The notes below the pieces were generated by a model. That model was not told the origin of the DNA. It did no database searches and saw only the letters and a list, made by a program, of their open reading frames with translations. A stretch of DNA of 63,361 bases, filler included, from Rozella allomycis CSF55 (lineage: Eukaryota): assembly GCA_000442015.1 (NCBI GenBank). It is 6 parts of 6 records of this genome, joined end to end, with 100 filler letters (N's around TTAATTAATTAA, not from the genome) between each part and the next. Parts side by side here need not be neighbours in the genome. Positions count along the whole stretch, not along the records: positions 35,963 to 50,261 come from KE561014.1; 5 more parts are not named here. One strand, 5' to 3'. The position numbers and the translations under genes are program-made. Below, piece by piece: positions 11,549-56,654 of the stretch. Position 1 is the stretch's first letter. Every line of letters begins with the position of its first letter.

Positions 11549-11648
11549 NNNNNNNNNNNNNNNNNNNNNNNNNNNNNNNNNNNNNNNNNNNNTTAATTAA
11601 TTAANNNNNNNNNNNNNNNNNNNNNNNNNNNNNNNNNNNNNNNNNNNN
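11549..11648. other. scaffold gap with TTAATTAATTAA stop linker (same at 35863-35962, 50262-50361, 56082-56181, 62211-62310)
   Basis: Identical N44-TTAATTAATTAA-N44 spacer five times; artificial. Confidence 0.97.
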
Positions 11649-34806: not shown

Positions 34807-35862
34807 TTATTTACTTTTTGTACAATGGGTGTGCCTGATTTTATTGGCTTCAACGATGCAATCTACAGAGTCTATTGTTTTTAAGCAAATATGGCAAAAA
34901 GTGTTTTGATTAATGTTTACATATGAAGCATGATACCTTTTGGAGTAATATTGTAATGAGAGTTGATTTAAACGTGAAGAATAAAGGTTTGATAGCATTT
35001 GTTGTTGACGTTGCTTTGACTGTTGAACTTGAACAATGTTTAGAATGAAAGATTTCAGTTGCAGAAGATTAGAATTTTCAGATAAATTTTGGATGATGAG
35101 AATTGGATCGATGTAGAGGATGTATTTTGAGAGGAATGATAAAAGATTATCTTGTGAACAAATTCTATAAAATTTGAGTATTTTGATTACTGTTGAATAT
35201 TGTTGAAAAAGTGATTTAGCAAATTGGGAACGTTTGAATTATTTGTGTTGATTAAATGATCTATTAAGAATTGAAACGTTTCTAAGTCTTTGTAAATGTT
35301 TAAAATTGTTGATAGACTTTGTTTGAGGTTGCCTTTCAAATTATCAAAAATATTTGACTTGTTACTTGAAACTGAAGGATTGAATTTTCAAAGTCAAATT
35401 CAATTGAATCAACAAAGTCTATTGAATAATCAAAGCAAACAGAAACAAGTTTGTACCTTTAAGTTTTAAAGAAAGGAAAGTTCATTACCTTTAATTTAAA
35501 GAGAAGTGAATTATATTACCTTTAACATGAAATAACTAAGCCCATTACCTTTAATGTAAAGAGAAGTGAAATATATTACCTTTAACATGAAATAACTAAG
35601 ATCATTACCTTGAATTACAATTATTTTCATGGGACTTTAAATAATCTAAAAAAGAAGGTTTGGGATTGTCCATTTCGATATATTCTTGTTCTTGAATTAT
35701 TCTAATCAAAATCAATTTACCAGGGTCAATCATACAATCTAATTTAGAAAATTCCAATAAAATGAAAAATAATTTCTTGAGAATAAAAAGATCTTTTTCA
35801 TTTAATTTCTTAAATTTTTTTGAATCAGATTTTGAATCTAGAAAGAATTCTAAAACTTTTAA
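34807..35862 (-). CDS. 3' part of Vps39/Vam6/TGFBRAP1-family protein
   Basis: C-terminal YVNINQNTFCHICLKTI......HTHC zinc region preceded by helical repeats (VIRIIQEQEY, RYKLV); 5' end in gap. Confidence 0.6.
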
Positions 35863-35962
35863 NNNNNNNNNNNNNNNNNNNNNNNNNNNNNNNNNNNNNN
35901 NNNNNNTTAATTAATTAANNNNNNNNNNNNNNNNNNNNNNNNNNNNNNNNNNNNNNNNNNNN

Positions 35963-37639
35963 TTATTTTTGAAATTTCAATACTTTTTTTAGATTCAATA
36001 ATTTTTTCAATTTCATTTTCAAATTCTTTTAATTCTTTTTCAAAATCAAAATTCATGAAATTTAAAACTGATTTTTCTAAACTTTTTTTATATTCATTTA
36101 AAGATTCATTTTTAGCTAAATTTGAACTTGAAAGAAATCCTTCAGATTTTAAATTTGTTGTAAATTTCAAATTAAATAAATTCAAATATTTTTTAATTAA
36201 ATGTTTCTGCTGAATCAAAAATAAACTTGAAATATTCTCGTTAATCTTTTCTTCCAACTCTAACAACTTCTTTCTATAAATCTCTTCCTTATAGCGATGT
36301 GCACTCGATTTGAATTCTTCTATACATTTATTCTTATCAATTTCAAACTCTTCTTTAAAGTCTTCAATTATTTCTTCTTCTAAAATATTTCTCTTTGCAT
36401 GACACACCCTGGTAAATATTGACAATGAATTCTATTTTTAGATTCAGAAAATTACAAAATACATTCATGATTTCATCACATCGATATTGCGCTAACAATT
36501 CTTGCTGCGTTGGCAAATCCAAATCTTTATTACTCACAATTTTTTCCTTTTATTATTCACATCATTCATTACCCAAATCGCATCTGCATACTTTGAAAAC
36601 CCATCACTTGGGATATCATTCTTATATTCTTTATTCATCAAATACTTTGCATCTTGCTTGTTAAAAAACCTTTATAATTCCCACTCAACATTCAATACCA
36701 TTGTTTCAAGTTTAATACATCCTCATTAAATTTGTTCGCTTGCAGTCTCTTGTGAGCCAATCCAACAAACTTTAAATCAAACAAATCTGTAATCTCAGCT
36801 TCTCTAAACATTTCAGGCTAATTAATTCAACCCTGAAATCTTACTTTACTCAACCCTCTCCAAATTCTATCTAAATCACTCCTCAACGTATTCTCCAAAT
36901 TAATCAACGGAGTACTCCCTTCAAAATCACGTATCACAAAAAGTAACAATTTCTTTGCCATTCTTTCCCTCTCAAACACAAATCTTACCCAGGCTGCTGG
37001 AACAATTGCAAATGCACTTCAAAAACAGTCTTCAATAGTCCCATGCTAGCTCCATTATACAGTCCCACCGAATGCTCCCATAGATTAACAATCAAAATTT
37101 GAGAAACCGAAAGCGAAAACAATGCACTCTTTCGTTCAAAATCCTTTTAAATTTTAACAATTATATTCACTTGGTTTTCTCCTCGCTCACGACCGTCTGT
37201 CCCCTCCACATCCATAATCAACACCGATCTATCTTCATCCGCAGGCGACATCCAGATCCCTATCTCACTCCACAACTCTCAATACCTATCCCAACCAAAA
37301 ATTCACTCGTACCTTTAGTCGTCTGCTGGCGCCTCGTATCATCCATCTCCTGAAACGCAGTCCCAAACAATCGATTCAACAATGTACCTGCTCACCCACA
37401 CACCCAAAATTTACCTATTAAAACCACCCCCAATACGTACCTATATATTTTATAAACACTTTAATCACTTTTTCCAGTACTCTGCGCCCCAAATACCGCA
37501 ACAACAGTATAGTCAAACCCAATATCACTTATCTGCCACTTTTCCCTCACATAGCTCTCAAGATTTTGGCTATTTTTATGAAAATCGCTGGTTACTTGAA
37601 TTTTTGCTCATCGTCAATCAACTGAATTTGATTTGTCAT
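35963..37639 (-). CDS. SEY1: Sey1/RHD3 ER-fusion GTPase (3' end in gap)
   Basis: After splicing: [73 protein letters not shown]. Confidence 0.95.
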
Positions 37640-37737
37640 GAAAATGCAAGGGTTTCTACACAATTATTTCCGCGAGTTATATATAGTAAATGTCAAGTGA
37701 AATATAAAGCAGAATTAAATGGAATTATGGAAATAAT

Positions 37738-39366
37738 TTATTTTTTAACGTCTTCCTCTTCATTTTCTCTGTTCTCATCTTGCCTTTCCAGAACTAATAC
37801 GCCACATCTGGATGTCAAAATGTTGAAATCACTGTCCTTGACTGCAATGCCCACCAAAGGCTCCTTCAATAATCTGCAAAACTTTTGTTTAACAACTATA
37901 AACACTTACATAAACAGGCTCAACAATCGGAATCAGATCTAACTGCATTGGCTGGATGATATCCTCTATCTGTCCAAAGCCCCGCTCAGAAGCCTCTTCA
38001 TTCACCAATGATCTCCGTTTCTCTCTCTTGCCTAGCATACTTACAGTGGAATGCTACTAGATCGTAGACGAAACAGTTACCGATCGAGGGCGTCGCAAAT
38101 TCTCTCTTGAAAACTCCCAAAAACATGCAAACCCGTCGTGTCCAACACTGACAAATCTGTAAAGGTTCTGTCCACAGGTTGCGGGATCAAAGGCAACTTG
38201 AGAGACAAATGATTTGTGGCCTTGGCAGCGCGCTACAAATGTGCGCTCTTGGATATCAAGAATCGTAATACAATCGTCTTCACCGGCAAGCTATCATTAC
38301 ATCGTGCTTGAATTACTAGAATATATTTGCCATCAAAACTCCATGTTGCTGACAAGTATCCGCCAAAGAAGCTCTTCATACTGAAACAGAGTTTATGTGT
38401 GGAATGCTCAATGATTCTAACTATGCCGCTCTTTGAAACGATTGCTAAATGCTCGTAATCTGGCGAGAAAAATAATTCTAATGTTCAAATAAATAGATCT
38501 TTACTTTGCGACTCACTGGAACTGAATTGATAGATTGTTTCTACAAAACCACCAACAGGTAGTTGTCTCACTTGGAACCTGGAAATGTTTTCTCAAAATG
38601 TTACATTGATTTCGGAACTCGTGTTTCTGATATCGCCACCAGATTTTGCAATGATCTACAATTTAAGAACGCGACTATTCCGTCATTGAAGGCAGCTGCA
38701 AAACGTTCTTCAGAAGCTGGTAGCCATCTCACAGAAGACACGGGTGATTTAGATAAATGATGCTTTAAAACTTATAAAAAATGTTTTTACCGATTTATTG
38801 TGACGTACAAAATAGTTACTCAATGGACAATAAACTAATATTTCGCCATTAGACAAACCAATTAAAATATCCAAAGATGAAGCATTTTTTGTGGTCAAAT
38901 TTAAATCATGGCATGTCGGCGAGCATTTCGCGAAATTGATCATGACCAAGGGATCAGAGCTAGGGAGGCAAATATCTACCATCAAAAACGATTTGCTAGC
39001 ATGAATAAGAAATCCGCTGCCTTTGTAGCTCCCAGATTTTAAATCATCTTTAAACTGAGAGTTCATGGTAAACTTGTCAATTAGAGATGATGGACGAAAC
39101 AATCCTTCAACGCCGTAAAGAGTTGTGTATGCCTGTTTCTTTTGAAACGAGAATATGGAGTTAGAGTTTTCATCCTGTATCACGAATTCGAGTAATGTAG
39201 CATAATCCTTTTCGTCGTTTATTGTACTCACCTGCTTTGGGGTTGATACACTATACTCGGATATTGCTGAGAGCATGTATGAATGCAGTGGATAGTTAAA
39301 CTGGATTTGGGTATTGTATTCCACTGTCTGGTTATTCCAATCTACCGCAAAAAGTGTACTGGCCAT
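37738..39366 (-). CDS. WDR20/DMWD/CreC-type WD40 protein (DUB cofactor)
   Basis: PTCHDLN...LDILIGLSNGEI, VSSVRWLP, SFFGGYLSATWSFDGKYI, GEDD, RCQGHKSFVSQVAFDP, RFVSVGHDG. Confidence 0.85.
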
Positions 39367-39589
39367 ATGCGAAATTTCAGATTAGGGAAACATGACATTG
39401 ATGTGCTGCATATTTTTATCTTCTTATTAATCTGCATATTCCATAGAAGTATTTAGAAGGTATTGATCTCAAAAGAGTTAAGCTACTTCTTGTGAATATA
39501 AAGGATAAGCCTATTGCGGATAGTTTTGATTGCGCAGGTCATATTATAAATATAATTTGGGCATTTATTGATTTTCCAAAGTGCTCGAG

Positions 39590-40903
39590 TCAAGAATAAT
39601 TGTTTTCCGTGNTCGAGTCAAGTATAATTGTTTTCCGTGGATGTATATCCCACAAGAAGCCGTAAAAAGTATCTAGTGAATGTAATACTCTATGTTCACC
39701 TTTTGTGCCATGCTGAAACTCATCAAAGTGGGCTTCTGCTAAATTAAGTCGCGGGTGAAAATTTTCATCATGCAAAAACAACTGATGAGTTATTTCATGT
39801 TTTGGAAGCGCGAAATACTTTTGCGCTTCACTAATACTCAGTGAATATGAATACACTATGTAATTTTTATCAAATGTGTTAATGAACGCGTACGATAAAA
39901 CACAGGCACTGCGAGTACATTTCGTTTCCCAATCAACTGCACTGTCATAAATAAAACCCCCAAGAAATGTGTAACCAAACGAGAATATGTAACTGTGAGG
40001 GATGTTGTTCTTTAGAACCAAGGGGAAGTCCAAAAAATATAGGGACATACTAATCGGTTGGCTCGCCCTGTACAGTAATACTCGCCCTTGTGCCATCGCT
40101 CCTAATTCATCCATTAGTATTTTATGAAAGATGCTTTTCTCTTTAAACATTGTATGTGATCTTTTGGTCTCTTCAACATGCAAGTATGGATCAATCCCAA
40201 ATAGTGATATCGATCTGGGCCAACAATTAATCCAGGCTTCGGTATTCGAGTCGGCCAAACATATTTCATACTGGTCAATAAAAACTTCGAGATCCTTGAC
40301 TGCAAATAATGATTCATGTATTAATTTTGACCGCTCATCTAAATAATGACCATGGTTATCAAAAGATTTCGCAAATGAAAATATTCTTTCAATCATCAGT
40401 CTCGCTTTCTTACTCAAAGTATATTCAAGGTTTTCTATTAGTTGCTTTAATGAATAATTTTCAAAAGATGTTGCCAAGCGAAATAGGACATCTTCCTGAA
40501 TCATCTTATCCCAATTTTCGTTGTCCATACAATCACATCCTACATGATCGCATGAACTTCTCAACTTGTATGCATCAAGTAATTGCTGGCGTACAATATT
40601 TTCTCTCGCCATTGAATACAAAAACATGCTGGATTCACAATCCGCGATGGTGGGTCGTACGTAAGAAACTATGGTGAACAACTCATAGTAAATGGATGGT
40701 AGCTTCAGTGGATAGATCTTGTAATGTCTGTTGTAGATGCCGGGTAATTCTATCGAAGCGAATTCTTGAAATATTCGTTGTTGGTCATCTTGGTAGAAAG
40801 TGTCATTCCTGACCCAGAGAGGGTCTATGACGATAGCATGGGTACTAACTCCCTGACATATATCTTGAGGTACTATCAGTAGTACTGAATACAAGGATAA
40901 CAT
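39590..40903 (-). CDS. intronless secreted orphan protein, possible ADP-ribosyltransferase-like C-terminal domain
   Basis: 437-aa ORF, hydrophobic N-terminus, VLLYRA ... FSFG..FLGG...D...AC...Y ... ENFHPR. Confidence 0.65.
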   Translation of the reverse strand: MLSLYSVLLIVPQDICQGVSTHAIVIDPLWVRNDTFYQDDQQRIFQEFASIELPGIYNRHYKIYPLKLPSIYYELFTIVSYVRPTIADCESSMFLYSMARENIVRQQLLDAYKLRSSCDHVGCDCMDNENWDKMIQEDVLFRLATSFENYSLKQLIENLEYTLSKKARLMIERIFSFAKSFDNHGHYLDERSKLIHESLFAVKDLEVFIDQYEICLADSNTEAWINCWPRSISLFGIDPYLHVEETKRSHTMFKEKSIFHKILMDELGAMAQGRVLLYRASQPISMSLYFLDFPLVLKNNIPHSYIFSFGYTFLGGFIYDSAVDWETKCTRSACVLSYAFINTFDKNYIVYSYSLSISEAQKYFALPKHEITHQLFLHDENFHPRLNLAEAHFDEFQHGTKGEHRVLHSLDTFYGFLWDIHPRKTIILDSXTENNYS

Positions 40904-40929
40904 CCATCCATTGAGGATCTGAATCTTAA

Positions 40930-41195
40930 GTTACGCTAGACAATGCCCTGCCAAGGTCATTGACGATAGCATAGAGTTCACAACCTTAATAGAGCTATTA
41001 AGGTTTCTCTATTGATAACTAACATAGATTTCATACTCATTCATGAAGACCCAATATGGATAAGTTATGCTAGACAATGCCCTGCCAAGGTCATTGACGA
41101 TGGCATAGAGATCACAACCTTAATAAAGCTATTAAGGTTCTTCTAGTGATAACTAACATATATTCAATACTCATTGATGAGGACTCAATATGGAT
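40930..41195. repeat. diverged tandem duplication of ~135 bp
   Basis: gctagacaatgccctgccaaggtcattgacgat...caatatggat occurs twice with scattered substitutions. Confidence 0.9.
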
Positions 41196-42959
41196 CTCTT
41201 AATATGATAGATCTATAAATAGGATACTATTTATAGAAAGAATCAACCATATAAAACTCCAAGGAGATATCAATAAATAGAACGGAGATAATCCATTCTC
41301 AATCGATATCTGTTTTTTACTTTTTATCTTACGATTTACTATCCGATTTACGAGGATTAAGGTTCTATGAGCGCATGGAGCGACAGAAAGGCCAGGAAAA
41401 TTTCCTTAAGATTTCTCGGACTTTCGTATGTAGCTGGACATGTCCACTGTTACCAGAATGTTCCATTTTAGATCTTCTATTGATGCTGCACCAGTACATT
41501 GATAGAGTTCGGCCGTACAATAACTCTGCGTGGAGATCGATGCCTGCTAAGATTCCTGAAAATCTACTGACTATAATGGGCACATACACATGCGACCCCA
41601 TCGTTGAATAATTCCAGAATAAAAAGACCAAGATCAGGTGGAAAACGTGCATGGTGGCGTGTAAAAATGTGATTGACCTTTTATGATCGAACTTTGTTAC
41701 TTTAAACTTCCGCAAAATCTACATTCATTTGAGTAAATTCCGGCTTATTATTTAGTCAGGTAGTCAAGAGATCCAGCAAAAATATCGATGCTACGGGTAT
41801 AACACAGCCGGCGCCGCAAGATGACTATATGAGAAACCAAGGCATAAATGCGACCCTTGGAGTAGATAGAAAAGATTTTATCACTGCTCTAAAGAAGTCT
41901 ATTTATTGATTATTTATCAATTTACTTTAGATGGCGATGAATATTTTTGTGCTACTATGATTTACACAGCGACAACATTACGAGCAACGTAATAAGACCA
42001 TAATTGTGGATGTTAAGATTAAGGTATGGAAATGACAAAATTTTTCGATAAATCTATTGGCAATGGTTTTCGTGATATCCCAATTGGATTTTGTTGCAAG
42101 CTTTCGTGCATTTTTTTATAGTTAGAGCTTTTCAAATGTATNTTTTTTTTATATTAGAGCTTTTCAAATGTATATTTGTTTCTATCTCTGAAGATGTTGT
42201 AAGGCTAAGACGCACGGCAAGATTTCCCGGTAGCCATATTGATGATAAAAAAGTAGCTGAAATAATTTTAGAATTGCAACGCGGACATTATTCTATTTGA
42301 TGCAACTTTGGCATTTTCTTCAGTGTACAAAACTGATATCATATTAATCAAAGCATTTTGAGCCCGCCAAACTCATTGAATGATGAATCTACTTACAAAA
42401 ATAATCATTTGCCAAAATTGGATGATTACCATATAGAATTAGTCATTTTTTGTTTTCAAAGAAAAGAAATAACAATTCTTATTATTTAAGGTTCCATATG
42501 AAGTTTAACTCAAATGACTACACTTTTAGATGAATGGATTTTTTCTGGTGATGAAGAGATATTTGATTTGGGTATGGACCCCTCAGTCACATTGGTAATT
42601 ATTTGGGAATTGATTTTCCTAGATTTAAATTGAGCGCATTGATTCCAGTTCACCATACATCTTTAATCGTAGAAAAATTTATGAATAAATTATATTTGAT
42701 ATTGTGCCGTTAGTCATGGTTTAAAATCGTCCATTATTTTACGGAATGTCATGGAATGATCAAAATTTCATTAATTGTTTAGGCTATTCCAAAACATCTC
42801 GATATAACTAAAAAATCATTAAACGTGATGAAATTGGACGGTCAAGTTTTAATACAATATGTAAAATGTGAGAGAAAGATACATTTTAGGCAATTCTTGA
42901 TTACGAATTTTTGTAAAATTATTTTTAACAACGTGCCATTTCGACTACGCCACTTTTTA

Positions 42960-44147
42960 ATGATGAAAAACTTTGCATTTTTCTTCTTTACTGTCGTGAT
43001 AGGCTTTGTAGTTGCCGGAAATAGTTTTCAAGATGATTTAAAGAGTGCTATTAGTGCGAACAGTGTCGAGCCTGTGAGAAAATGGCTGCAAATGGATTGG
43101 GTGGAAGTTAATGCTGCTGGTTTGGAGGCGGTTGCCGCTGCTTTAAAAAGCAATAATGTGAACCTTGCAAATGAAATCTATAGTTTAAATCCTTGGGCGA
43201 TGGTTTTACCTAGCCCAGACGGTGGTTTGATAGCCCAGCTGGAAATTAAAAGATTTAAAGATTTCTTTGAAAAAGTTATGAAGTACATTCCTGATGATGA
43301 ACTTGGCACTACTTTAATGTCCGTGAATATTGACTATGTATTGCACGAATACGAATATGAACTTTCCGAATCTGAAGATTCGGAAGGTCTTGAAAATCTG
43401 TTTAAGGACAAAGTAGACACCCTTTATAGACGAATTTTCGCTTCGTTACTGAATAGTGACTTTGTTAAAGTGGTGAACTTACGTGAGAAGGTGGAATATC
43501 TTATTAGCAAGTTTAGTTTTAAAGTTGACAAGCACGACGTCATCAATGCATGGATTGACCGTAGAGTAGAAATGAAAACGTTTCTAGAGAGCAAATTGAC
43601 TCAGAAACTTACAGAGAAGGACACAATTACTTATCAAAAACTTTTTCTAATGAAGGGCCCCACCTTTTCATTTTCGCAGTTTTATTACGAGATTGGCAAA
43701 GAAGCATTTGAAACCCATCTTCTTGAAAGGTTTGCACGCGATGCACGTTTGCGAATTTTTGCCAGCTTTGTTCATGAATCCGACAACTTCAAGCCCGTAA
43801 ACTTTATTAAGTGTTCTTCTGACAACAAAGCAGTGCATGAATTTCCTCATTTGGATGCCTACTATCCAGAAAACAGCCCATTCTTATTTTTAACTATCAG
43901 GGGAAGCAAGACTGAATATTTGAAGGTGACAGACGAAAACAAAAAAATCGAACTTAAGAAGACAGATTTGCTGAACGACGCGGTATTCGCTGATAGAGAA
44001 GCAAAATTGGACTTGGGAATTGCACCATCTATATTTATTGTGAACAAATATGACAGCCAACAAAGAATCATTGAAGCTACGTTTGATGGAAATGACTCGT
44101 ATGAATTCCATATCGTTCACGATGGTGGACTTGCACCTAGCGCATAG
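42960..44147 (+). CDS. intronless secreted orphan protein (ankyrin-like N-terminal helices)
   Basis: MMKNFAFFFFTVVIGFVVA signal peptide; LKSAISANSVEPVRKWLQ / AVAAALKSNNVNLANEI. Confidence 0.7.
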   Translation: MMKNFAFFFFTVVIGFVVAGNSFQDDLKSAISANSVEPVRKWLQMDWVEVNAAGLEAVAAALKSNNVNLANEIYSLNPWAMVLPSPDGGLIAQLEIKRFKDFFEKVMKYIPDDELGTTLMSVNIDYVLHEYEYELSESEDSEGLENLFKDKVDTLYRRIFASLLNSDFVKVVNLREKVEYLISKFSFKVDKHDVINAWIDRRVEMKTFLESKLTQKLTEKDTITYQKLFLMKGPTFSFSQFYYEIGKEAFETHLLERFARDARLRIFASFVHESDNFKPVNFIKCSSDNKAVHEFPHLDAYYPENSPFLFLTIRGSKTEYLKVTDENKKIELKKTDLLNDAVFADREAKLDLGIAPSIFIVNKYDSQQRIIEATFDGNDSYEFHIVHDGGLAPSA

Positions 44148-44191
44148 TTAATAAAATAGTTTAATTTAAATGGAATTTCGTTTAATGTAGT

Positions 44192-46225
44192 TTATTTATC
44201 TTTTTTCTCCTCTTTCTCATTTGTCTTTGTTTTTTCCAAGAAGTGTTCGATGATAATGTCTTCTTGCTTTCTAGCTGCCATGTAAGTAATGTCATTTTTA
44301 AGAAAAGTTTTTATTCTTCTAACAGTTGTCATCAACTGTGCTTGTGCCAATGTTGACCTTACAGCCTTTCCGTTCAAGCCAAGTAAAGTAGAATGACCGA
44401 GTACTTTACGCATTTCTATTGAGACCAAGTCTGTAAAAGCAATACCCATAACTGAAATATCCTGCTTCTCGATTTTAACTTGATTTGAAGAACTTGATGA
44501 CGATTCTTTGCAATCAAAGCTTCTATAAAGCATGCAATTACCACATCTTTCAACAGGTGTAATGTATCGTCGATTATGATCACCATAATAACGATAGGAA
44601 CTAACCATCAACGATTTAGATTTAACACTTGACGTTGTGTCACCATTAGTAACAGCCAAAGAACAGCTTTGATCTTCCGCACAGTTTCCTAAAGGATGTT
44701 TAACACCTTTTTTTTGTTGCACTTCGTGCCCAAAGTTTTGCTGAACTATTTTTGGCAACAAAGTATCTTTCTGCAAAAATTTGCTTTCGCTGACAAAAAA
44801 GGTTTCGTCTGAGTTACATTCTAAAATCAATGCATGCATGTCTGTGTTTGTAAAAAGGCTGTCGCGGGCTTTAAAACTCATTCCCATATATAATCTATCG
44901 TCATTTATATCATCATTGAAAGAGACTGAAAGAACATATTGGTCTAAAGGTTTTTTTACTTGTTTCAACCATTTGTTGACACATTGTGCAAAACGAGGAA
45001 GTTTTTCATCAATATATCGGAAAAAGTTTATAAAATCTTCACTTCTTTCGCGAAAAAGAATATTTTCCTTGGAAAAGATGTTAGAATAGAAACTGTCAAT
45101 TACTTTTTCGCTAGAGAATTGTAAATTTCCTTGATTCAAAATAGTGTTCTGGGTTCCGTAGCTTCTCAAAAGGTCACAAAAGCTATTTTCATTTAGCACA
45201 GATGAACTGAATAAAATATCATTGAACAACTTATCAGCTACCAAGGGAGTAATAGAAAACGGTGATAATGTAAATGAATAACTTGTCGTGTGGGCCCAAA
45301 TTTGGGGATTTCCGCCGTTCAGTTCTTTAACCAATNCCCAAATTTTGGGATTTCCGCCATTCAGTTCTTTAACCAATTCTAAATACTCATTTAATTCAAC
45401 AAAAGGATTATTATGGTCATAATGAATATCAACCACGTACACTTTACCATCATTCTTACCTTTTATCAATGGAACTTGAATCACCGGAATTCTGAATGCT
45501 GTGCCATCTTTTCTTGGTGCTGAAACGGTAAGTTTCTTAGGATCAGAGAAAGGAAGATATTCGTTAAATTCTTCACTTTCACTAGGGCCGATAACTAAAA
45601 TCGGCGGTGCTATTTCACTAGATCCTTCAAGCTGATCAACAAGGGAATGATAAACTATTTCAATACTAGACATTCTATTTTTAACGGACTTGCAATGAAC
45701 CATATCTTTGATTAGCTCGGAATTAATAGTAAATCCATTCCTCAATACGCACTCCCCGCGGATATTCTGAACTATGGTGTTTTTGTTATTCACATCATCT
45801 ACAATTTTTTTTGCCAACTTTTTGAACTCCTCAAAAGTTCCTTTTTCCATCTTTTTACCACTTTTGTTCTTTATGTTTTGAAAAGTTTCTCCATATGACA
45901 TATAATTATTCTCAATTACCCAGTTCATGCATCTTTCGTTCGCCGCCTTTCGTTTCTCATTATCTATACCCGAACACGGGTTTATAAAAGATCCCATTTT
46001 GTCCTTTAAAATGTCTGCGACTTCAGAAATGTTATCCTGCTCAAATGCGACTTCCTTTAAGAGAAATTTGGGTTCAGTATTAAAAACAGGAAGATCAAGA
46101 TTTCGAATGGTTCGCAAGCTCTCTTCACTGACAGACGAAAGTTTGAACGGTTGCGTTGATCTAATTTCAACTGGCAAGGAGGATACAGTCAAGATGCCAC
46201 TGAGAACATAAAACACGTGCTTCAT
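44192..46225 (-). CDS. secreted protein with C-terminal zinc-dependent deaminase-like motif (CAE...CxxC)
   Basis: Signal peptide MKHVFYVLSGILTVSS; HPLGNCAED at ~44672-44698 and RCGNC at ~44534-44548. Confidence 0.65.
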   Translation of the reverse strand: MKHVFYVLSGILTVSSLPVEIRSTQPFKLSSVSEESLRTIRNLDLPVFNTEPKFLLKEVAFEQDNISEVADILKDKMGSFINPCSGIDNEKRKAANERCMNWVIENNYMSYGETFQNIKNKSGKKMEKGTFEEFKKLAKKIVDDVNNKNTIVQNIRGECVLRNGFTINSELIKDMVHCKSVKNRMSSIEIVYHSLVDQLEGSSEIAPPILVIGPSESEEFNEYLPFSDPKKLTVSAPRKDGTAFRIPVIQVPLIKGKNDGKVYVVDIHYDHNNPFVELNEYLELVKELNGGNPKIWXLVKELNGGNPQIWAHTTSYSFTLSPFSITPLVADKLFNDILFSSSVLNENSFCDLLRSYGTQNTILNQGNLQFSSEKVIDSFYSNIFSKENILFRERSEDFINFFRYIDEKLPRFAQCVNKWLKQVKKPLDQYVLSVSFNDDINDDRLYMGMSFKARDSLFTNTDMHALILECNSDETFFVSESKFLQKDTLLPKIVQQNFGHEVQQKKGVKHPLGNCAEDQSCSLAVTNGDTTSSVKSKSLMVSSYRYYGDHNRRYITPVERCGNCMLYRSFDCKESSSSSSNQVKIEKQDISVMGIAFTDLVSIEMRKVLGHSTLLGLNGKAVRSTLAQAQLMTTVRRIKTFLKNDITYMAARKQEDIIIEHFLEKTKTNEKEEKKDK

Positions 46226-46296
46226 AATTGTGGCGGAGCTACGAAAAAAAAATTAATTCCAAATAGACCATCAGCCACCACAAAAATAACTATAAA

Positions 46297-47015
46297 TTAA
46301 TAAGGTAATTTATAACCATCACGGTGGTAAAAGCCACCACTTATGTCCTCGCTTAGATCATCAATCACATGGATCATCTTTTCTACTGCTTCCCTTGGAT
46401 CCATGTCTCCCTGTCCTCCAGTCATGTCGGTCCTTATGTATCCAGGATGAAGAGCCAAAACTTTTATTTTATACTTCATCAGATCAATGGCAAGAGACTT
46501 GGTCACCATGTTTAATGACGCCTTTGACATTCTATATCCGTAATATCCTCCGGATGTGTTGTCTTCAATGGAGCCCATCCTGGAAGTAATATTGATAACT
46601 TTACATCCTTCATTCATAAAAGGCAAAAGAGATTGTGTCACTAACAACGGACCCATTGCATTAACCTTAAATTGTTCCATGCACGCTTCAGCCATGTCCT
46701 TTTCTTTGGTTGTAAAATCGCTCTTTAAAAAAATTCCGGAATTATTGATTAATAAATCAATTTTGATGTCCTTTTTAGAAAAATTAGAAGCCAATTCTGC
46801 TATGGAGTCCGCGTTGGACACATCCAAAACGAGATGACAGTCTTTTGAAATGATTTCCGATAACTAAATATGAATTTCATTCGGTATTATACCTCTTTGA
46901 CATTTGAATATGGCGCTCGTGATGTCCCGAATACCTTATATCCTTGGTGCAAATATTGCCTAGCGAATTCTAGGCCTATTCCGCGATTCGCGCCTGTGAC
47001 AAAGACTACTGGCAT
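46297..47015 (-). CDS. short-chain dehydrogenase/reductase, CsgA/C-factor-like
   Basis: VFVTGANRGIGLEF, LLINNSG, ITSRMGSIEDNTSGGYYGYRMSKASLNM, LHPGYIRTDM. Confidence 0.93.
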
Positions 47016-47051
47016 TTGGTAACTGAATATGAAATTTCGAAAAGATTGGCA

Positions 47052-47555
47052 TCAAGATTTATTTCGATTATAAATTTTAAAGACAAAAGTTAAAGAAAAA
47101 ATTACTACAAAAAGTAAGCAAGATGACCATTTTGCCCAATTCATTATCATTACCATCTCGGTAACAAATGAGAACGCCTGCTTTGCCTTAAGAATTATCG
47201 TGACCATTAATGTTTCTAGTAGATCCGAGATTAGGTATAACCATGATATCCTTTTCAAGACATTTGAATTTAAAAGGCCCGCAAGATTTACTGCCGCAAA
47301 ATAATTGAGCAGAATAAATGCATAATCATAGTAATTAATTGTCTTGTAAACGTCAACTGCCTTATTAGAATTCAATATTTTAATAAATATCTCTTGAACT
47401 TTTAATAAGTTTGGAAAGAGCAATTCTTCTGGAGTCATGAAATCTTCGCCAAAGATTGGTGCGAACTTGCCCTTCATTTTAAAAAGTAAAATGGATGTTG
47501 TAAGAATTATTGCTGTAATTAGTTTCACTAGAGAACCCAATTTTCCTCTGTTCAT
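47052..47555 (-). CDS. hypothetical 4-TM membrane protein
   Basis: 167-aa ORF with four hydrophobic segments (YDYAFI, SDLLET, WAKW). Confidence 0.65.
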   Translation of the reverse strand: MNRGKLGSLVKLITAIILTTSILLFKMKGKFAPIFGEDFMTPEELLFPNLLKVQEIFIKILNSNKAVDVYKTINYYDYAFILLNYFAAVNLAGLLNSNVLKRISWLYLISDLLETLMVTIILKAKQAFSFVTEMVMIMNWAKWSSCLLFVVIFSLTFVFKIYNRNKS

Positions 47556-47710
47556 GTTGATGGAATCAAGGTAAGAAGTAGCGGGAAATTTCCTTGGAAG
47601 ATGAATTTACTTTGAAATGATTTTGATGCCTAACCAATAAGTCTAGCGTATAGACTTGCTAGGAATTTCTTTTCAACAAGACGATTTTTATGTTTACATA
47701 ATTTTTTGTA

Positions 47711-50125
47711 ATGATATTTGTTATATTTCTCGTCTTCTTTGCAAGCCTTTCATTTGCAAAATACAAAAATATCTATGCGATGAATGAAAATGACGTGTCG
47801 GTTTGGGTGGCAGGAGGAATTTTTGTAGCTCCAATTGATGTAAAGTCTCTTACTGTTCCTGGTATTTTTCCACTGACAAAAGGCGGTAGGCCATTTGAGC
47901 AGGGAATATTACAAGCGGAATCATTTAGATGCGCAATAAAGTATGCAACAAGTCAACTTAAGCCCTTTAAGAACATGTCAATATACTACAATATCCATGA
48001 TAATTCAGATGAATTTTCAAGAACATTAGAAGTAGCCGCTGATTTTTCTTCATTTGCGTTTGCAGGAAAAGGGTTTGCGATAGGTAATACAAAAGGCATG
48101 ATAAAATAGGTGGACAGTCTTCAGAGTCTGTGCGTGATCTTTCTAGCATTCTTGGATTTGATTTCAATACTTTAATATCGCCAGGGGCTCCTTCATTAAC
48201 ACTTTCTTCGTCAAATGATTACCCATTTCTGCTTCGCACAGGATTGACTGATCAGTTGTATGTCGCTGCCATTACTCAAATCTGCAAAAGAATGAAATGG
48301 GATTTTATTTCAACAATATATTATGGAGATATTATTTTATCGAACACCATAGATTACTTGAAAAAGGAGCTATCAAAGGAGCGAATTGTCTGTGTATGTG
48401 GTTCATGCGACAATTTCGCACACAATACACTGACAAATGCAAAAGAATTTGTGAAATGCATAAAAGATCATAATATCAGAGTGATCGGATTGCTAGCCTT
48501 GTCTGAACTTCAAATTGAGAGATATCTCACCCTATTTGAAACCTTGGGATTAAGTGGTGTTGTGTATATATTTTTGGAAAGACCAATGTCTGTTTTAGAA
48601 AATCCTAGTCTGAAAAAAGTTGTTGGAGGTAGTATAAGTTTAGGTCCTAAGCCTGTGAGAGAACGCGTTGAATACCTGAATAAGTGTTTGGGCGAAGTGC
48701 CCATTAACTCTGAGGAATTTCCAAATGTTGTCCGAGAATTCTTTTCCACTAAATTTCGATGTTTTATGAATGGTACCTACCCCTTATGTCCTTCTGAGAT
48801 TGAAAAGAGATCAACCAAAGTTGATTGTTTGTGTACTGGGAAAGAATATATAACTGATTATAAGTATTATAGCTCGTTGTACACTTTTGATTCCACATTG
48901 ATTGCATTATATGGATGGTCACAACTTTTGCCTGACTGTGAGAAAGTCGACTGTAGAAATGAAGCGGGGAAGCCAATGGGGCGGGAGATTGCTTATCCGT
49001 TATTCATAGAGTTTATGAGGGAATCTGAAGTTGTGGGAACTACGGGGATCTTGTCCTTTAAGAATACCAGTCGTTCAAGTAAGAGGGATATTTTGAAACA
49101 ATAGATTTGATGATCTCTATTGAACAATTTGATGAGAATGGAAATTATAAAGAAATTGGGATATTTGACAAGGCAAAGAAACAAATATATATTGACAAGA
49201 CGAGACTTGTTTGGACGAAGATGTCTTCTTCTGGACAAATTTTATCACTAAATATTCCAATATCGCGTAAAATATTGTCTTCTACTTGAATTAAGATGTG
49301 GAACCTGTAAATGGGATTAACCAAATATCAGGGCAAATTTTCATCACAGCGGCATGTTTGGGAATCATTGCTTGTATCTATATTCTTACTAAAATTATAT
49401 TAAATAGAACAGAGAGGCCAATTAGGAAAAGCAATCTTTTTTATAATGTGATACTACTGTTAGGGATTACTTTTTTGTATGTGACCATTCTTTTATGGAG
49501 TGTACCAGAGTCGACTGAAGTCTGCATTGCCAGACGTACCATATTGACATTATCGTGTGCTACAGTAATAACATGTATGTTTTGCAGAGTGTATCAAGTG
49601 TTTTTGGTCTACAGCTCGTATGAAATTGAAAAAATCAGTCCATTTGTAACCGCCAAAGGAATACTAAAAGTACTGTTGCCAATAATAGTTATAGACACTG
49701 GAATCTTATGTGGGATGTTTCAAAACCTGGAAGGCATAAAATTAATAATGCCCGACGATGATTTGACTTTTCGGTACTATTCATGCTCATACAAGTCTTC
49801 GCAAACTGACAAGTACTATTCTTTAGCGCTGGTATATACAAATTTGGGGCTATTAATTGCTTCATGTATCTACGGGTTTATATCCAGAAGGGTTGTAATC
49901 TCCTATCACGAAACAAAATATATAACAATATCCTTGTACAATCTTCTGGTTTGTGCGACAATTTTCATGCCCATGTATGTCACCGCAAAGGAAACACGAG
50001 ACGGATGGACCCAAAAATATCTTGTGCGTTCAATTCTATTATTCTTTGCAGCATCTTTCACTTTGCTATACAATTTTGTGCCTAGATTGAGGAATTTACA
50101 AAAAAGCAGTAAAAAGAATGCGTAA
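47711..50125 (+). CDS. class C GPCR (Venus-flytrap ectodomain plus 7tm_3; GABA-B/mGluR-like)
   Basis: Signal peptide; GIFPL, LISPGAPSLTLSSSNDYPFLLRT, MKWDFISTIY, GTTGILSF; TM region IRKSNLFYN.ILLLG, CIARR, YHETKYITISLYN, FVPR; about 3 introns. Confidence 0.9.
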
Positions 50126-50568
50126 GTAAATAAAATTGAGATTTCGCATTTTAATTTTGGTTCAGATATATTTTTAGTTCGCAGTTATTGTGATGTATAT
50201 TATTCTCGAATCTCTCACTTTCTGAATTCTTGGTATAGAGATAAAAGACTCAAAGTTTGCANNNNNNNNNNNNNNNNNNNNNNNNNNNNNNNNNNNNNNN
50301 NNNNNTTAATTAATTAANNNNNNNNNNNNNNNNNNNNNNNNNNNNNNNNNNNNNNNNNNNNACTTACTTGTTCTATTACAGTTTTAACTCGAAAATAAAT
50401 TCCATTTTAAGTGGTAAAAAAAAAAGTTAATAACCCGCAGGCCGCACAAAGCAGACATTAAGTACAAACTCAGTTGATACTTCGTAATCTTTATTGTATT
50501 ACTAATTGTTCGTCTATCTATTATATTCCATGACTATTTAGAATGTGACTTGATCAAATAATTTATAG

Positions 50569-52581
50569 GTTGTTATAGAAACTGGACTTGATGAATAACG
50601 AACAATCCATTAACTTCAACGTACCAGCAAAGTTCTTAAAGGCATCTCAGGCCAGAATGCAAAAGATGAAACAGAATAGTTTAGAGAGAGATAAGTCTAT
50701 GGTTCCTCCCAAATTGGAACCATTACCAAAGGCTCAAGAAGGACCAAAAGGCCCCAATATGTCCATACCCTCTACTTCAAATATATCANTGTCCATACCC
50801 TCTACTTTAAATATATCAGATAAGGTCTTTGAAAGTAATCCAAAAAGTAAGCCTGTGACCGCCCCATCAAAAACTGCCTTGGAAATTGATCGCATAAGAA
50901 AGAAACGTGAGTTGAGACGCCAGCAACAACAAGAGATTAAGGACATGAACAAACTGATAGATCCGGAAACAAAGGATATTAAAAAATACAAGTCAATCAT
51001 CGCTGCTTTTGTCGCCGGCATACCAGCTGGTGTATCCAATTCAAAGAAATCGTTATCAGAAATCAGCCAAGAAGCAGCAATCAGAGTGTGCGTACGAAAG
51101 AGGCCTATTAATGAAAAAGGTATCTTTTTTTAATGAATTACAAAGAAAGCAGTTTGTCCAATTTTGACGTTGTTACGTGCAGATCTAATGCAAGCCGCAA
51201 CGCGCTGATGTATGTGCACGAACCCAAAGTCAAGTTTGACATGTCAAAAGACATGGAACATCATCAATTTTGCTTTGATAATGTCTTTGATGAAACCAGC
51301 ACAAATGAGGCAGTCTATTCTTCCACTTTAAAGACAATTCTGCCACAGCTACTTAACCAAGGCAGAATAAGCTTTTTCGCGTATGGTCAAACTAGTTCAG
51401 GTACACTGACAAGCCTATTCATATGTAGGAAAAACTCACACAGTCTTCGGTAATCAATCGAATCCCGGTGTTTATCACTATGCATGCAAAGACATTTTCA
51501 AATTGATTAAGAATGACAAATCATTATTTGTGACAGTATGTTTTTATGAGATCTACGGCGGAAGAATTTATGATCTATTTCAAAACAAGGCCCGGTTGCA
51601 GTTGTTAGAAGATGGAAAGGGTGATATAAAGATAATGGGTTTGCAAGAAATACAAGTTGGTAGTTATGAAGACATGATAAGACTTATTGACTATGGTTTT
51701 TCAACTCGTACTACAGCATCTACCTCTGCAAATGATGAATCATCACGAAGTCACGCAATATTGCAGATTAGTATTCGTCAGGGCGATGGGTCCATAGTTA
51801 AAGGAAAGTTCTCTTTGATTGACCTTGCCGGATCTGAAAGAGCTTCAGATGTCAATCACACTGACCGGCAACGCAGAATCGAGGGCGCCGAGATCAATAA
51901 AAGTTTGCTCGCGTTGAAGGAATGTATAAGAGCCTTAAACAAGAGACAGAGTGGTGCCCATATTCCTTTTAGGGCCAGTAAGCTAACTCAGGTTTTACGC
52001 GACTGCTTTATTGGAAACAATTCACTTACAGTAATTCAATGTCAAATCCTATATAGGTCATGATAGCAGCGGTAAGTCCAGCCTCCGATTCCTGTGATCA
52101 CACTCTGAATACACTTCGTTACGCTGATAGGGTAAAAGAATTGAAGCCGGAGAAGAATTCCAAACTAAAAGTAAATACAAAGAGGTCGATATCATGCTCC
52201 AATGTAAAAGAAACTAATATAAGTTAATAGATGCTTCCAAGTCCGCTTATTTCACCCGAAGATGAAGATATTGAAAAACTCCATGAAAGCTTGAATACTC
52301 CCTTTGAACTTTTAAATCTTCATAAAACTGCAAATGCCATAGTTTATGAGCACGAAAATTTGACGCGAAAGCACGATGAGGCACTCAAAGAACAGACTTT
52401 AATATCACAAACAGAAAAAGAGCTATTGGATGAAGTTGACATTGACATATACGTTGATGGATTAGAGAAATGCATTAATGATAAAATGGAGATTCTTGGT
52501 GATTTACTAAGAAATGTACATCAATTGAGACAAGATTTATCACACGTTGATACAAATCCAGATATTAATTTGGAAGATTAG
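50569..52581 (+). CDS. kinesin-13 family motor (KIF2/KIF24-like), 5' end uncertain
   Basis: [87 protein letters not shown]. Confidence 0.95.
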
Positions 52582-55823: not shown

Positions 55824-56654
55824 GAGTTTAATCCACTGTGGCTGATATATAAATTTAAAAATAGAAAGATTTAAAGAAAATAAAATATTTAATCGCCTTT
55901 ATTATTAAGTATATCTATTCATTTGGTGTCAAAAGAAAGTAAGCAAGTACATGGCCGGTGATTGGCAGTTGAAGATTGCTTGAAAATGCAGGGCCATTGT
56001 CGGGTGTGTATAGATTTAGCCTAATTAATTGCGATGAAATGGATATTTTTGCGGAATCAATATTTAAAACAGTCTTTGATGNNNNNNNNNNNNNNNNNNN
56101 NNNNNNNNNNNNNNNNNNNNNNNNNTTAATTAATTAANNNNNNNNNNNNNNNNNNNNNNNNNNNNNNNNNNNNNNNNNNNNGTCGCAGCTGTTGCTGATT
56201 CGTTTAAAGTAAAGTAAAACATGCTTTACTTCTTATGATTGTTTTTAGTAAGCCTGGCTTGACTGATACTGATAATAGATATCCAACGCAATAACTAGTT
56301 GTTAGGCCTCTTCCTCGCATTCATCACTCTCAGAGTCATTATCATATAATTATAAATCTTCAGCAAGCTCATAATCAAAATTATTACTGTCGCGTAAAGA
56401 ATCTGTTCATTCGGTGGTTCTGTTTTGGTTCTGTTAGTGTAGTTTTCGAAATACCTGTTGCCATTCGGGAAGCATGGAATTGGATGAGTACTTAGAATTT
56501 TTTTGGCTCTAGTTTTCAGTTTTTTTGCCCAAGCATTGATAGGTAACCCGTAAAAACGATTTCAAAATTACCTAGAAAATTTACGAAATGGGGTGAACCT
56601 GATGTTCAATACAAACGAATTAGATAATTTAGTGGACAGTCGAAGTCCTCTTTA

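What the first reader, a model, noticed from the sequence alone, without database searches (positions are those of the whole stretch)
37388..37468. Triple stacked intron inside the SEY1 P-loop, made of three unrelated units
The conserved STGK|STLLN motif is restored only by removing 81 nt, and the unspliced frame hits TAA. The 81 nt divide into gtgatt...atatag (28), gtacgt...taatag (26) and gtaaat...gagcag (27). Each is a complete GT...AG unit of modal intron length with zero exon between. The units are not copies of each other, so this is not a recent repeat expansion, and it is independent support for stacked or recursive mini-introns.
Basis: partly seen in the sequence, partly recalled or inferred. 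Interest (0 to 1): 0.87.

Follow-up and report, generated by a model that had tools for sequence, protein, structure and literature searches.

The report
Three abutting mini-introns in SEY1
An 81-base interruption in the GTP-binding loop of a fungal-relative's ER-fusion gene is built from three back-to-back intron-sized pieces, which suggests, but does not prove without RNA data, that this tiny-intron organism removes it in several small steps.

Summary
On the minus strand, 37468..37388 interrupts the P-loop of a SEY1/RHD3 gene. A tool named the gene's best match as Rozella allomycis CSF55. Removing exactly these 81 nt gives [13 protein letters not shown] and an open frame; every partial removal gives a stop at residue 51-56. 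The 81 nt split into 28+26+27-nt GT..AG units. About 60 predicted introns in the window are 23-31 nt, mode 26. Only 2.3-2.8% of shuffles split this way, and 0 of 50,000 have internal sites as good as observed. The units are unrelated in sequence. The internal splice sites score like real ones, while the two outer sites are weak. The position is an old fungal intron position. A 53-nt (27+26) and a 152-nt (five-unit, partly duplicated) interruption lie nearby. Stepwise splicing remains inferred: no RNA run holds the locus. One equally good-looking 28-nt "unit" next to a real intron is conserved kinesin coding sequence. The public protein model destroys the P-loop here. Verdict: a real, non-random structure. 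The best reading is miniature recursive splicing, confidence about 0.6.

The parts
35963..37639 (-). 5' part of a SEY1/RHD3-type GTPase gene. The ATG is at 37639, and the gene runs off the contig end at 35963, where an artificial linker follows.
   Evidence: Exon 5 is 100% identical to P0001, 'RHD3/Sey1 domain-containing protein, partial [Rozella allomycis CSF55]', whose contig is 14299 nt, the same length as window 35963-50261. Alignment A1. Parser model.
37469..37569 (-). Exon 2, which ends ...FGAQSTGK plus the first base of the Ser codon (phase 1).
37441..37468 (-). Unit U1, 28 nt, gtgatt...atatag. Its donor is weak (G at +3) and its acceptor strong.
   Evidence: PWM donor -0.76, acceptor +2.68.
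37415..37440 (-). Unit U2, 26 nt, gtacgt...taatag. Both sites score like real introns.
   Evidence: PWM donor +1.20, acceptor +2.17, 53rd percentile of real introns.
37388..37414 (-). Unit U3, 27 nt, gtaaat...gagcag. The donor is strong and the acceptor very weak. A tandem AG at 37391 would give a 24-nt unit and a 78-nt total.
   Evidence: PWM donor +3.16, acceptor -7.11. 78-nt alternative.
37313..37387 (-). Exon 3, (S)[24 protein letters not shown](G). It begins with GTAC, and its first downstream AG ends at nt 38.
37260..37312 (-). Second interruption, 53 nt = V1 (37312..37286, 27 nt) + V2 (37285..37260, 26 nt). Removing both gives QTTKGIWMS.
   Evidence: Statistically marginal: 17% of shuffles decompose, and 3% do so with sites as good as observed.
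37570..37595 (-). Ordinary single intron, 26 nt.
37144..37170 (-). Ordinary single intron, 27 nt, at the conserved position Q|DFERK.
36963..36988 (-). Ordinary single intron, 26 nt. Further single introns lie at 36818-36844 (27 nt), 36670-36698 (29), 36547-36572 (26) and 36432-36462 (31).
35457..35608 (-). Five abutting units W1-W5 (29, 31, 29, 31, 32 nt) in a different, unidentified gene on the neighbouring contig. W1/W3 and W2/W4 are near-identical tandem copies.
   Evidence: TRF period 60, 2.2 copies, 91% matches. Unit similarity. Frame logic. No homologue or Pfam support for the gene.

Best explanation
The 81 nt are a train of three abutting U2-type mini-introns (28, 26 and 27 nt), joined by two zero-length 'exons' (TAG|GTA). 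They occupy an ancient fungal intron position in the P-loop codon GK|S of SEY1. The organism's introns are almost all 23-31 nt. Its spliceosome most likely pairs each 5' site with the 3' site about 26-28 nt downstream, so the stretch is removed in two or three small steps. The order is free, because excising any unit leaves intact sites for its neighbours and recreates a 5' site at the junction. This is recursive splicing at ratchet points, on a miniature scale. Only the final product, with all 81 nt out, encodes the GTP-binding loop. Every intermediate carries a premature stop. Shown: the anatomy, its non-randomness, the conserved intron position, and the requirement to remove the whole stretch. 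Inferred: that the internal sites are used, and that a one-step 81-nt excision is not the main route. Such trains probably arise in two ways: by tandem duplication of whole intron units (seen fresh in the neighbouring five-unit stack), or by new internal sites appearing in an ancestral longer intron. They are then kept because each unit stays spliceable.
For: (1) Exactly 81 nt must go. Only full removal gives an open frame and the best match to a chytrid SEY1 (score 608). All partial products stop at residue 51-56. Six other fungal SEY1 proteins read G[SA]QSxGKSTLLN with no insertion.
(2) The stretch decomposes uniquely into 28+26+27. With fixed ends, 2.3-2.8% of shuffles decompose, and 0 of 50,000 do so with internal sites as good as observed. 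Only 1 of 275 natural GT..AG 81-mers decomposes, and that one is this stretch.
(3) The four internal half-sites score +1.2 to +3.2, within the range of 38 training introns from other genes. The outer donor (-0.8) and outer acceptor (-7.1) are the weakest. A one-step reaction would therefore have to skip two good donors and two good acceptors.
(4) The units share no similarity beyond the site consensus. So the sites have been kept while the rest diverged, or they were created anew.
(5) Unit lengths equal the genomic mode: 63 predicted introns are 23-31 nt and 24 of them are 26 nt.
(6) No long single intron could be verified. My parser proposed 11 introns longer than 36 nt and none decomposes. 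Of these, the ClpX 50-nt case is a 26-nt intron plus 24 nt of conserved coding sequence. The ClpX 134-nt case reads as 28 nt + a 78-nt exon + 28 nt (by reading). The 127- and 74-nt cases span assembly duplications.
(7) The other two interruptions longer than 36 nt that frame or homology demands, 53 nt and 152 nt, also decompose into 26-32-nt units.
(8) Three metagenomic fungal loci have an intron at the same position and phase (33, 72 and 283 nt). Two of them also have an intron at the 53-nt position.
(9) A parser limited to introns of 36 nt or less, with stacking allowed, recovers the gene from its ATG through both U junctions.
Against: No RNA evidence of any kind is available. No listed holder of the locus is an RNA run, and the single RNA run laid did not contain the organism's sequence.
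Site score and length do not prove use. At 51092-51119 a 28-nt GT..AG stretch scoring +2.8 abuts a true 26-nt intron, yet it encodes the conserved kinesin-13 motif (I)[12 protein letters not shown].
Across the window, three abutting bare GT..AG units are not enriched: 3 loci observed against 3.5 expected, and 140 of 200 shuffles reach 3. The significance therefore rests on the coincidence with a required 81-nt removal and on site quality.
The 53-nt case alone is marginal, and its first unit could be a tolerated 9-residue insertion.
The five-unit stack lies in a gene without any homology support.
Six of the 11 long introns my parser proposed (143, 191, 43, 47, 45 and 188 nt) were not resolved. 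The 172-nt one I judged to be a join of two genes by reading only. Single introns longer than 36 nt in this genome are therefore not excluded.
No branch-point motif could be defined.
The whole genome was not available.
Confidence: 0.6

Rival explanations
1. It is a single 81-nt (or 78-nt) intron removed in one step with the outer sites. The internal TAG|GTA junctions are unused relics of an old duplication, or chance cryptic sites.
For: The position is an ordinary ancestral intron position, where other fungi have single introns of 33, 72 and 283 nt. A good-scoring unit can exist without being spliced, as in the kinesin exon. Bare triple patterns are not enriched window-wide. Single introns longer than 36 nt are not excluded, because six parser candidates were left unresolved.
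Against: 0 of 50,000 shuffles reach the observed internal site quality. The outer donor and acceptor are the weakest of the six sites. The units have diverged completely except at the sites. No single intron longer than 33 nt was verified among about 60.
Confidence: 0.25
2. It is a long intron whose ends are brought together by an internal hairpin, so that a short-intron spliceosome sees a short effective distance.
For: The 81 nt fold to -13.8 kcal/mol with z = -3.0, and 0 of 200 shuffles fold as well. The stem spans positions 11-80.
Against: The stability is ordinary for this DNA: 32 of 122 local 81-nt windows and 312 of 1423 random 81-nt windows fold at least as well. The 3' arm would bury the acceptor and any branch point. 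The 53-nt interruption shows no such fold (z = -0.46).
Confidence: 0.04
3. The public gene model is right: a 90-nt intron (37480..37391) is removed, and the protein lacks the canonical P-loop.
For: The 90-nt removal is GT..AG and in frame, and it is the deposited model.
Against: It gives FGAQT---GTLLN, deleting the GKS of the GxxxxGK[ST] motif (motif recalled) that is present in the other six aligned SEY1 proteins. The model also carries a 9-residue insertion that none of them has. Its alignment score is 557 against 608.
Confidence: 0.03
4. The extra length exists because the intron hosts a small RNA (for example a snoRNA), or the stretch is an assembly artefact or insertion in a dead gene.
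For: 81 nt is about the size of a snoRNA. The assembly has many joins and duplications elsewhere.
Against: There is no Rfam match at E <= 1 in 35000-38500, and none at gathering score in the whole window. The stretch is present without a gap in an independent run's contig. The rest of the gene is intact and highly conserved.
Confidence: 0.03

Closest known systems
Zero-nucleotide recursive splicing at ratchet points (Drosophila Ubx and other long introns; vertebrate recursive sites)
   Same: Juxtaposed 3' and 5' splice sites (AG|GT) sit inside an intervening sequence. After one step, a 5' site is recreated at the junction and is spliced again. Basis: the abstracts of bioRxiv 10.1101/006163 and PMC8605326, seen in the listing.
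   Different: Known cases, as described in those abstracts, subdivide large or long introns. Here each segment is 26-28 nt, the whole is 81 nt, and every segment is a complete intron of the genome's modal size. The order need not be 5' to 3'. Use of the sites is not shown here.
Fungal stwintrons and complex intervening sequences (CIS)
   Same: These are fungal intervening sequences made of several U2 intron units and excised by consecutive reactions. New splice sites can appear inside an extant intron or arise by small duplications. Basis: PMC7138796, abstract and searched passages.
   Different: In a stwintron the internal intron interrupts a splice signal of the external one, so the units are nested and the order is obligatory. 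Here the units abut end to start, each with its own complete sites, and nothing is nested.
Intron gain by tandem duplication of an AGGT-containing segment (recalled from the literature; PMC7138796 lists tandem duplication among proposed intron-gain mechanisms)
   Same: The five-unit stack at 35457-35608 shows a 60-nt tandem duplication (two whole units) whose copies keep AG|GT borders.
   Different: Classical cases duplicate exon sequence to create one new intron. Here whole introns are duplicated next to themselves. The 81-nt stack shows no trace of duplication.
Genomes with uniformly tiny introns (Paramecium, mikrocytids, myxozoans; titles and abstracts seen only)
   Same: The intron length distribution is narrow and peaks below 30 nt.
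   Different: None of my literature searches returned a paper describing abutting mini-introns in such genomes or in Rozella. The library does not cover subscription journals, and supplements were closed.

Membership tests
U2-type GT-AG spliceosomal intron (each of U1, U2, U3) | GT at the 5' end and AG at the 3' end, with the local extended consensus (GTA.., ..TAG) | tested here: met
   All three units are GT..AG. The internal half-sites score +1.2 to +3.2 on a PWM from 38 introns of other genes. U1's donor (GTG) and U3's acceptor (CAG after G-rich sequence) are atypical.
U2-type GT-AG spliceosomal intron (each of U1, U2, U3) | Length within the organism's intron length class | tested here: met
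   The units are 28, 26 and 27 nt. The 63 predicted introns are 23-31 nt with mode 26.
U2-type GT-AG spliceosomal intron (each of U1, U2, U3) | Removal restores a conserved reading frame | tested here: met
   This is met only for the sum of the three units. Each unit alone or in pairs leaves a stop.
U2-type GT-AG spliceosomal intron (each of U1, U2, U3) | Excision seen in RNA (junction reads, lariat with branch point) | not testable with these tools
   No RNA run holds the locus. The RNA run X10 gave only 15 short partial pieces, 11 of them under 90% alike.
Recursive splicing / ratchet point | Juxtaposed acceptor and donor (AG|GT) inside the intervening sequence that recreates a 5' site after the first step | tested here: met
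   The junctions are atatag|gtacgt at 37441/37440 and taatag|gtaaat at 37415/37414.
Recursive splicing / ratchet point | Stepwise intermediates or segment lariats observed | not testable with these tools
   No RNA data.
Recursive splicing / ratchet point | Occurs in unusually long introns (large/long per the abstracts in the listing; the kilobase scale is recalled) | tested here: not met
   The whole stretch is 81 nt. So this works like recursive splicing but is not the known long-intron class.
Stwintron (spliceosomal twin intron) | An internal intron interrupts the donor, branch or acceptor element of an external intron, which becomes functional only after the first excision (PMC7138796) | tested here: not met
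   Each unit has its own uninterrupted GT and AG. The units abut and are not nested.
Tandem-duplication-derived intron array | Units are detectably similar copies in head-to-tail order | tested here: not met
   This is not met for U1-U3 or V1/V2 (83rd percentile). It is met for the neighbouring W1/W3 and W2/W4 (scores 19 and 21 against a background maximum of 7; TRF 91% matches).
SEY1/RHD3 dynamin-like GTPase (host gene) | RHD3/Sey1 GTPase domain with P-loop GxxxxGKS (motif recalled), the [12 protein letters not shown] and DFERKSALF blocks, and the middle domain | tested here: met
   Precomputed PF05879 and PF20428 on P0001, with 100% identity to exon 5. Alignment A1. The spliced N-terminus aligns to P0010 over 188 residues with one 1-residue gap. 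The C-terminal transmembrane part is off the contig.
Intron-hosted small RNA | Match to a known RNA family inside the intron | tested here: not met
   0 matches at E <= 1.

The most novel reading that the evidence does not exclude
This organism's spliceosome has a hard upper length limit of roughly 33-36 nt. Any longer intervening sequence, including ancestral introns that did not shrink, therefore survives only as a train of abutting mini-introns with zero-length exons. The trains grow by tandem duplication of whole units, which would be a distinct mode of intron gain. Splice-site pairing would be set largely by distance, which the 26-nt GT..TG intron in ClpX also hints at. Intron lengths genome-wide would then be quantised at about 27, 54 and 81 nt and so on.
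Probability: 0.3. Interest if true: 0.8.

Novelty: new variant of a known kind. Interest (0 to 1): 0.6.

Why it matters
If the units are spliced separately, this would be recursive splicing at the smallest scale I know of. It would give a natural system for asking how a spliceosome measures intron length and pairs sites by distance.

It would also show a simple route of intron multiplication, tandem duplication of whole introns. And it would show how ancestral introns are accommodated in a lineage near the base of the fungi, sister to the intron-poor Microsporidia.

There is a practical point that stands regardless. Gene callers that do not allow abutting introns mis-model such genes. The deposited SEY1 protein lacks its P-loop and carries a 9-residue insertion for this reason. 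Proteomes of tiny-intron organisms may contain systematic errors of this kind.

Tried and rejected
- RNA evidence: the look-up of sequencing runs listed 15 runs. 8 hold part of the stretch, and no RNA holder is listed.
It was re-sent for 35963-50261. The RNA run X10 gave 15 short partial pieces in low-complexity sequence only. The DNA runs confirm the sequence but show no listed unit-sized indel in the SEY1 region. The 28-, 32- and 42-nt 'left out' or 'skips' entries at about 39585-39612, 42110-42143 and 45304-45347 lie at single-N assembly joins with duplicated flanks. They are not intron polymorphisms.
- Close relatives for intron comparison: the metagenome scan with the organism's own protein found nothing. 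The scan with an alignment gave 80 fungal loci at 27-51% identity, none close. They were still useful for intron positions.
- RNA-structure bridging is rejected as unremarkable. A small RNA in the intron has no support.
- My first parser runs with long introns allowed produced 11 introns longer than 36 nt. Several were shown to be composites or assembly artefacts, and six stay unresolved.
- I first read a 28-nt intron at about 36392-36419 by eye. Alignment A1 and the parser show that stretch is coding.
- I first counted six units in the 35420-35608 stack. Frame logic shows the sixth (38 nt, GTAC...) is exon.
- I guessed the gene carrying that stack to be Vps39-like. It has no Pfam hit and no homologue, so I dropped the guess.
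- Two-unit candidates: 51092 is false because it is coding. 28255 lies antisense to a long ORF. 3172-3224 and 11859-11916 are unresolved.
- Literature: 'stacked introns' gave 0 papers. Other phrasings gave nothing on abutting mini-introns. Rozella intron searches gave only intron density (2.5 per kb, PMC8476143, passages) and a range of median intron lengths of 29-197 bp across fungi without per-species values (PMC8042348, passages; Table S7 not seen, supplements closed). PMC5701793 has no occurrence of 'intron'.
Full report
**What is there.** The feature lies on the minus strand. An ATG at 37639 opens a gene whose exons encode a SEY1/RHD3-type dynamin-like GTPase. Exon 5 (37143..36991) is 100% identical to a database protein that a source names 'RHD3/Sey1 domain-containing protein, partial [Rozella allomycis CSF55]'. 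That protein's contig is 14,299 nt long, the same length as window 35963-50261. The window is a chain of contigs joined by N44-TTAATTAATTAA-N44 linkers, and the standard genetic code fits. Exon 2 ends ...FGAQSTGK plus one base. Then come 81 nt (37468..37388), and exon 3 continues (S)TLLNRLFG....

**Check of the observation.** The unspliced frame reads STGKSD* and so hits TAA. I modelled all combinations. Only removal of all 81 nt gives an open frame with the family's GKSTLLN and the best alignment to a chytrid SEY1 (score 608). U1, U2, U3, U1+U2, U2+U3, U1+U3 or nothing removed all give a stop at residue 51-56. Four single GT..AG removals stay in frame, of 78, 81, 90 and 93 nt. The 78-nt one uses an AG three bases upstream of the outer acceptor and gives GKTGTLLN. 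So 'only 81' is slightly too strong. The 81 nt decompose in one way only, 28+26+27. The DNA itself is confirmed: a contig of run X6 spans 36904-37810 with 9 differences and no gap, and no indel or joint is listed in this region for X1, X2 or X6. Those tables are truncated.

**Background: the intron population.** No annotation or genome was available. I therefore wrote a small Viterbi gene parser, with codon log-odds trained on 18 long ORFs, GT/AG sites and iteratively trained site matrices.
- With introns limited to 36 nt or less, it predicts 63 introns of 23-31 nt: 24 of 26 nt, 12 of 27, 9 of 28, 7 of 29.
- With lengths up to 200 nt allowed, 52 of 63 predicted introns are 20-32 nt and 11 are longer.
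- None of the 11 long ones decomposes into units, and those I could check are not real long introns:
  - The ClpX '50-nt intron' is a 26-nt intron followed by 24 nt encoding NCDFDVEK. That stretch aligns without a gap to CDYDVQK of solved ClpX chains.
  - The ClpX '134' reads as 28-nt intron + 78-nt exon + 28-nt intron (by reading).
  - '127' and '74' skip sequence duplicated at single-N assembly joins.
  - '172' joins two genes (by reading).
  - Six (143, 191, 43, 47, 45, 188) remain unresolved.
- So no single intron above about 33 nt is verified in these 63 kb, but such introns are not excluded.

**Is the three-unit structure more than chance?** Conditional on the fixed ends, 454 of 20,000 dinucleotide shuffles decompose with units of 20-40 nt, and 118 of 20,000 with units of 24-32 nt. 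Of 275 natural GT..AG 81-mers in the window, only this one decomposes.

I scored sites with a matrix that uses intron-side positions only, trained on 38 introns from other genes.
- The internal half-sites score +2.68 (U1 acceptor), +1.20 (U2 donor), +2.17 (U2 acceptor) and +3.16 (U3 donor).
- The outer donor scores -0.76 and the outer acceptor -7.11.
- 0 of 50,000 dinucleotide shuffles and 0 of 50,000 mononucleotide shuffles decompose with all internal half-sites at or above +1.20.

The units are no more alike than unrelated introns (percentiles 12, 12 and 94 of 703 pairs).

Results against: across the whole window, three abutting bare GT..AG units occur at 3 loci against 3.5 expected. The pattern alone is therefore not rare. 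What is rare is its coincidence with a stretch that must be removed, together with the site quality.

**Neighbouring cases.**
- *The 53-nt interruption.* 75 nt downstream, 53 nt (37312..37260) split into 27+26. Removing both gives QTTKGIWMS, as in all six aligned fungal SEY1 proteins. Removing only V2 also stays open, with a 9-residue insertion. Statistically this case is marginal: 17% of shuffles decompose, and 3% do so with sites as good as observed.
- *The 152-nt interruption.* It lies on the adjoining contig, so in another gene. 152 nt (35608..35457) split into 29+31+29+31+32. TRF finds a 60-nt period with 91% matches. W1/W3 and W2/W4 are near-identical, and W5 resembles W2/W4. Only removal of these five units joins the upstream 85-codon ORF to the downstream frame. 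That gene has no Pfam hit and no homologue, so its support is frame logic only.
- Both exons that follow a stack begin with GTAC, and the first AG ends at nt 38.

**Evolutionary position.** A scan of metagenome contigs with the organism's own protein found nothing. A scan with an alignment gave 80 fungal SEY1 loci.
- In 75 of them the P-loop is contiguous. Many may be transcripts. 2 lack the region.
- 3 have an intron at exactly this position and phase, aaR a|gt..ag|gN acN: L072 with 33 nt, L077 with 72 nt, and L009 with 283 nt and GC-AG borders.
- L072 and L077 also have introns at TTKG|IW (55 and 88 nt) and at Q|DFERK (39 and 69 nt). These are the positions of this gene's 53-nt and 27-nt interruptions.

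Both stacks therefore occupy old intron positions. They are not insertions at new sites.

**Mechanism.** The best reading is a train of three independent mini-introns removed in separate steps. Each excision leaves the neighbours' sites intact and recreates a 5' site at the junction. This is the logic of zero-nucleotide recursive splicing at ratchet points (abstracts in the listing), at roughly one-thousandth of the usual scale by my recollection of typical recursively spliced intron sizes. The argument is indirect and has five parts:
- (i) The spliceosome here handles about 26-nt introns almost exclusively.
- (ii) The internal sites are better than the outer ones, so skipping them in a one-step reaction is hard to picture.
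- (iii) The site consensus is kept at four internal half-sites while the rest of the units shares nothing.
- (iv) All three interruptions longer than 36 nt that frame or homology demands decompose into units of 26-32 nt.
- (v) The five-unit stack shows that whole units are duplicated with exact AG|GT borders and tolerated.

Against this, a 28-nt GT..AG stretch scoring +2.8 abuts a true 26-nt intron in a kinesin-13 gene, yet it encodes the conserved [12 protein letters not shown]. The only PDB hit to that exon end is KIF2C residues 252-274, at a weak E of 0.71. The next exon aligns to KIF2C from residue 288 of the same chain. So site score and length do not suffice to predict splicing in this organism. 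There is no RNA to settle it. I put 0.6 on stepwise removal and 0.25 on one-step removal.

**Rivals tested.**
- A hairpin that shortens the effective length: the 81 nt fold at -13.8 kcal/mol, z = -3.0. But 32 of 122 local windows and 312 of 1423 random natural 81-nt windows fold as well, and the stem would bury the acceptor.
- A hosted small RNA: no Rfam match.
- The deposited model: its 90-nt intron gives GAQT---GTLLN, and it keeps V1 as coding. That yields a P-loop-less protein with a 9-residue insertion that none of six homologues has.

**Comparison with what is known.**
- It works like recursive splicing but fails that class's usual feature of very long introns.
- It is not a stwintron, because no splice signal is interrupted (PMC7138796, abstract and passages).
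- The 81-nt stack is not a detectable tandem duplication, although the neighbouring stack is.
- My searches found no description of abutting mini-introns, in Rozella or elsewhere. The library lacks most subscription journals, supplements were closed, and the original genome paper was not seen.

**Verdict.** If RNA confirms it, this is a new variant of recursive or complex-intron splicing.

Noticed in passing
window 37260-37480 (minus): The deposited protein for this gene (P0001) uses a 90-nt intron that deletes the P-loop GKS. It also keeps the 27-nt unit V1 as coding, giving the insertion GTSEFLVGI. This looks like a gene-model error caused by abutting introns.
   Followed up: yes
window 17171-17196 (minus): A ClpX gene has a 26-nt interruption, gtaaga...caattg, that must be removed to join ...RLLQ to NCDFDVEK (contiguous in solved ClpX). 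It ends in TG, not AG. Either this is a non-canonical 3' site at the modal distance, or base 17172 is a sequencing error. Raw reads were not checked.
   Followed up: partly
window 35457-35608 (minus): Five abutting GT..AG units (29, 31, 29, 31, 32 nt) sit in an unidentified gene. They include a 60-nt tandem duplication of two whole units. This looks like a young intron train.
   Followed up: partly
window 51092-51119 (plus): A 28-nt GT..AG stretch with a good splice-site score lies directly upstream of a true 26-nt intron, yet it encodes the conserved kinesin-13 motif VRKRPINEK. It is a natural decoy that the spliceosome must ignore.
   Followed up: yes
window 37350-37387 and 35419-35456 (minus): Both exons that follow a stack start with GTAC and contain no AG until nt 37-38. 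That is just beyond the observed intron length range. This may reflect selection against splicing into the exon.
   Followed up: no
window 35963-37640 (minus): The SEY1 coding strand is strongly C-poor (6-10% C against 15-20% in five other ORFs). GC skew is -0.43 for 36001-38000, the strongest in the window. Its introns are correspondingly G/T-rich.
   Followed up: partly
window 40733-42163: Summed contig depth in two DNA runs rises from about 250 to 35,000-83,000, with many variant contigs and joints. This is a very high-copy repeat, and it has no Rfam match.
   Followed up: no
window 11549-11648, 35863-35962, 50262-50361, 56082-56181, 62211-62310, and single Ns (e.g. 39612, 42142, 45336): The window is a pseudomolecule. 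Contigs are joined by N44-TTAATTAATTAA-N44 linkers. Several single-N joins have duplicated flanks (e.g. ELNGGNPKIWxLVKELNGGNPQIW). Independent contigs lack 28, 32 and 42 nt at three such joins.
   Followed up: partly
window 3172-3224 (plus) and 11859-11916 (minus): Two further places where two GT..AG units of 26-30 nt abut with acceptable scores. The first lies upstream of the ORF 3287-4855, whose C-terminus looks like a WH2/acidic tail by eye (no Pfam hit). The reading frames did not let me decide whether these are stacks.
   Followed up: partly
window 15249-15276 and 56572-56599 (minus): Two similar 27-nt GT..AG stretches with similar flanks lie at two loci near contig joins. This is probably a dispersed repeat rather than introns.
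   Followed up: no
L072 2547-2834, L077 1467-1856, L009 43-325: Three environmental fungal SEY1 loci share this gene's intron positions: the P-loop in all three, and TTKG|IW and Q|DFERK in L072 and L077. L009's P-loop intron begins with GC.
   Followed up: yes
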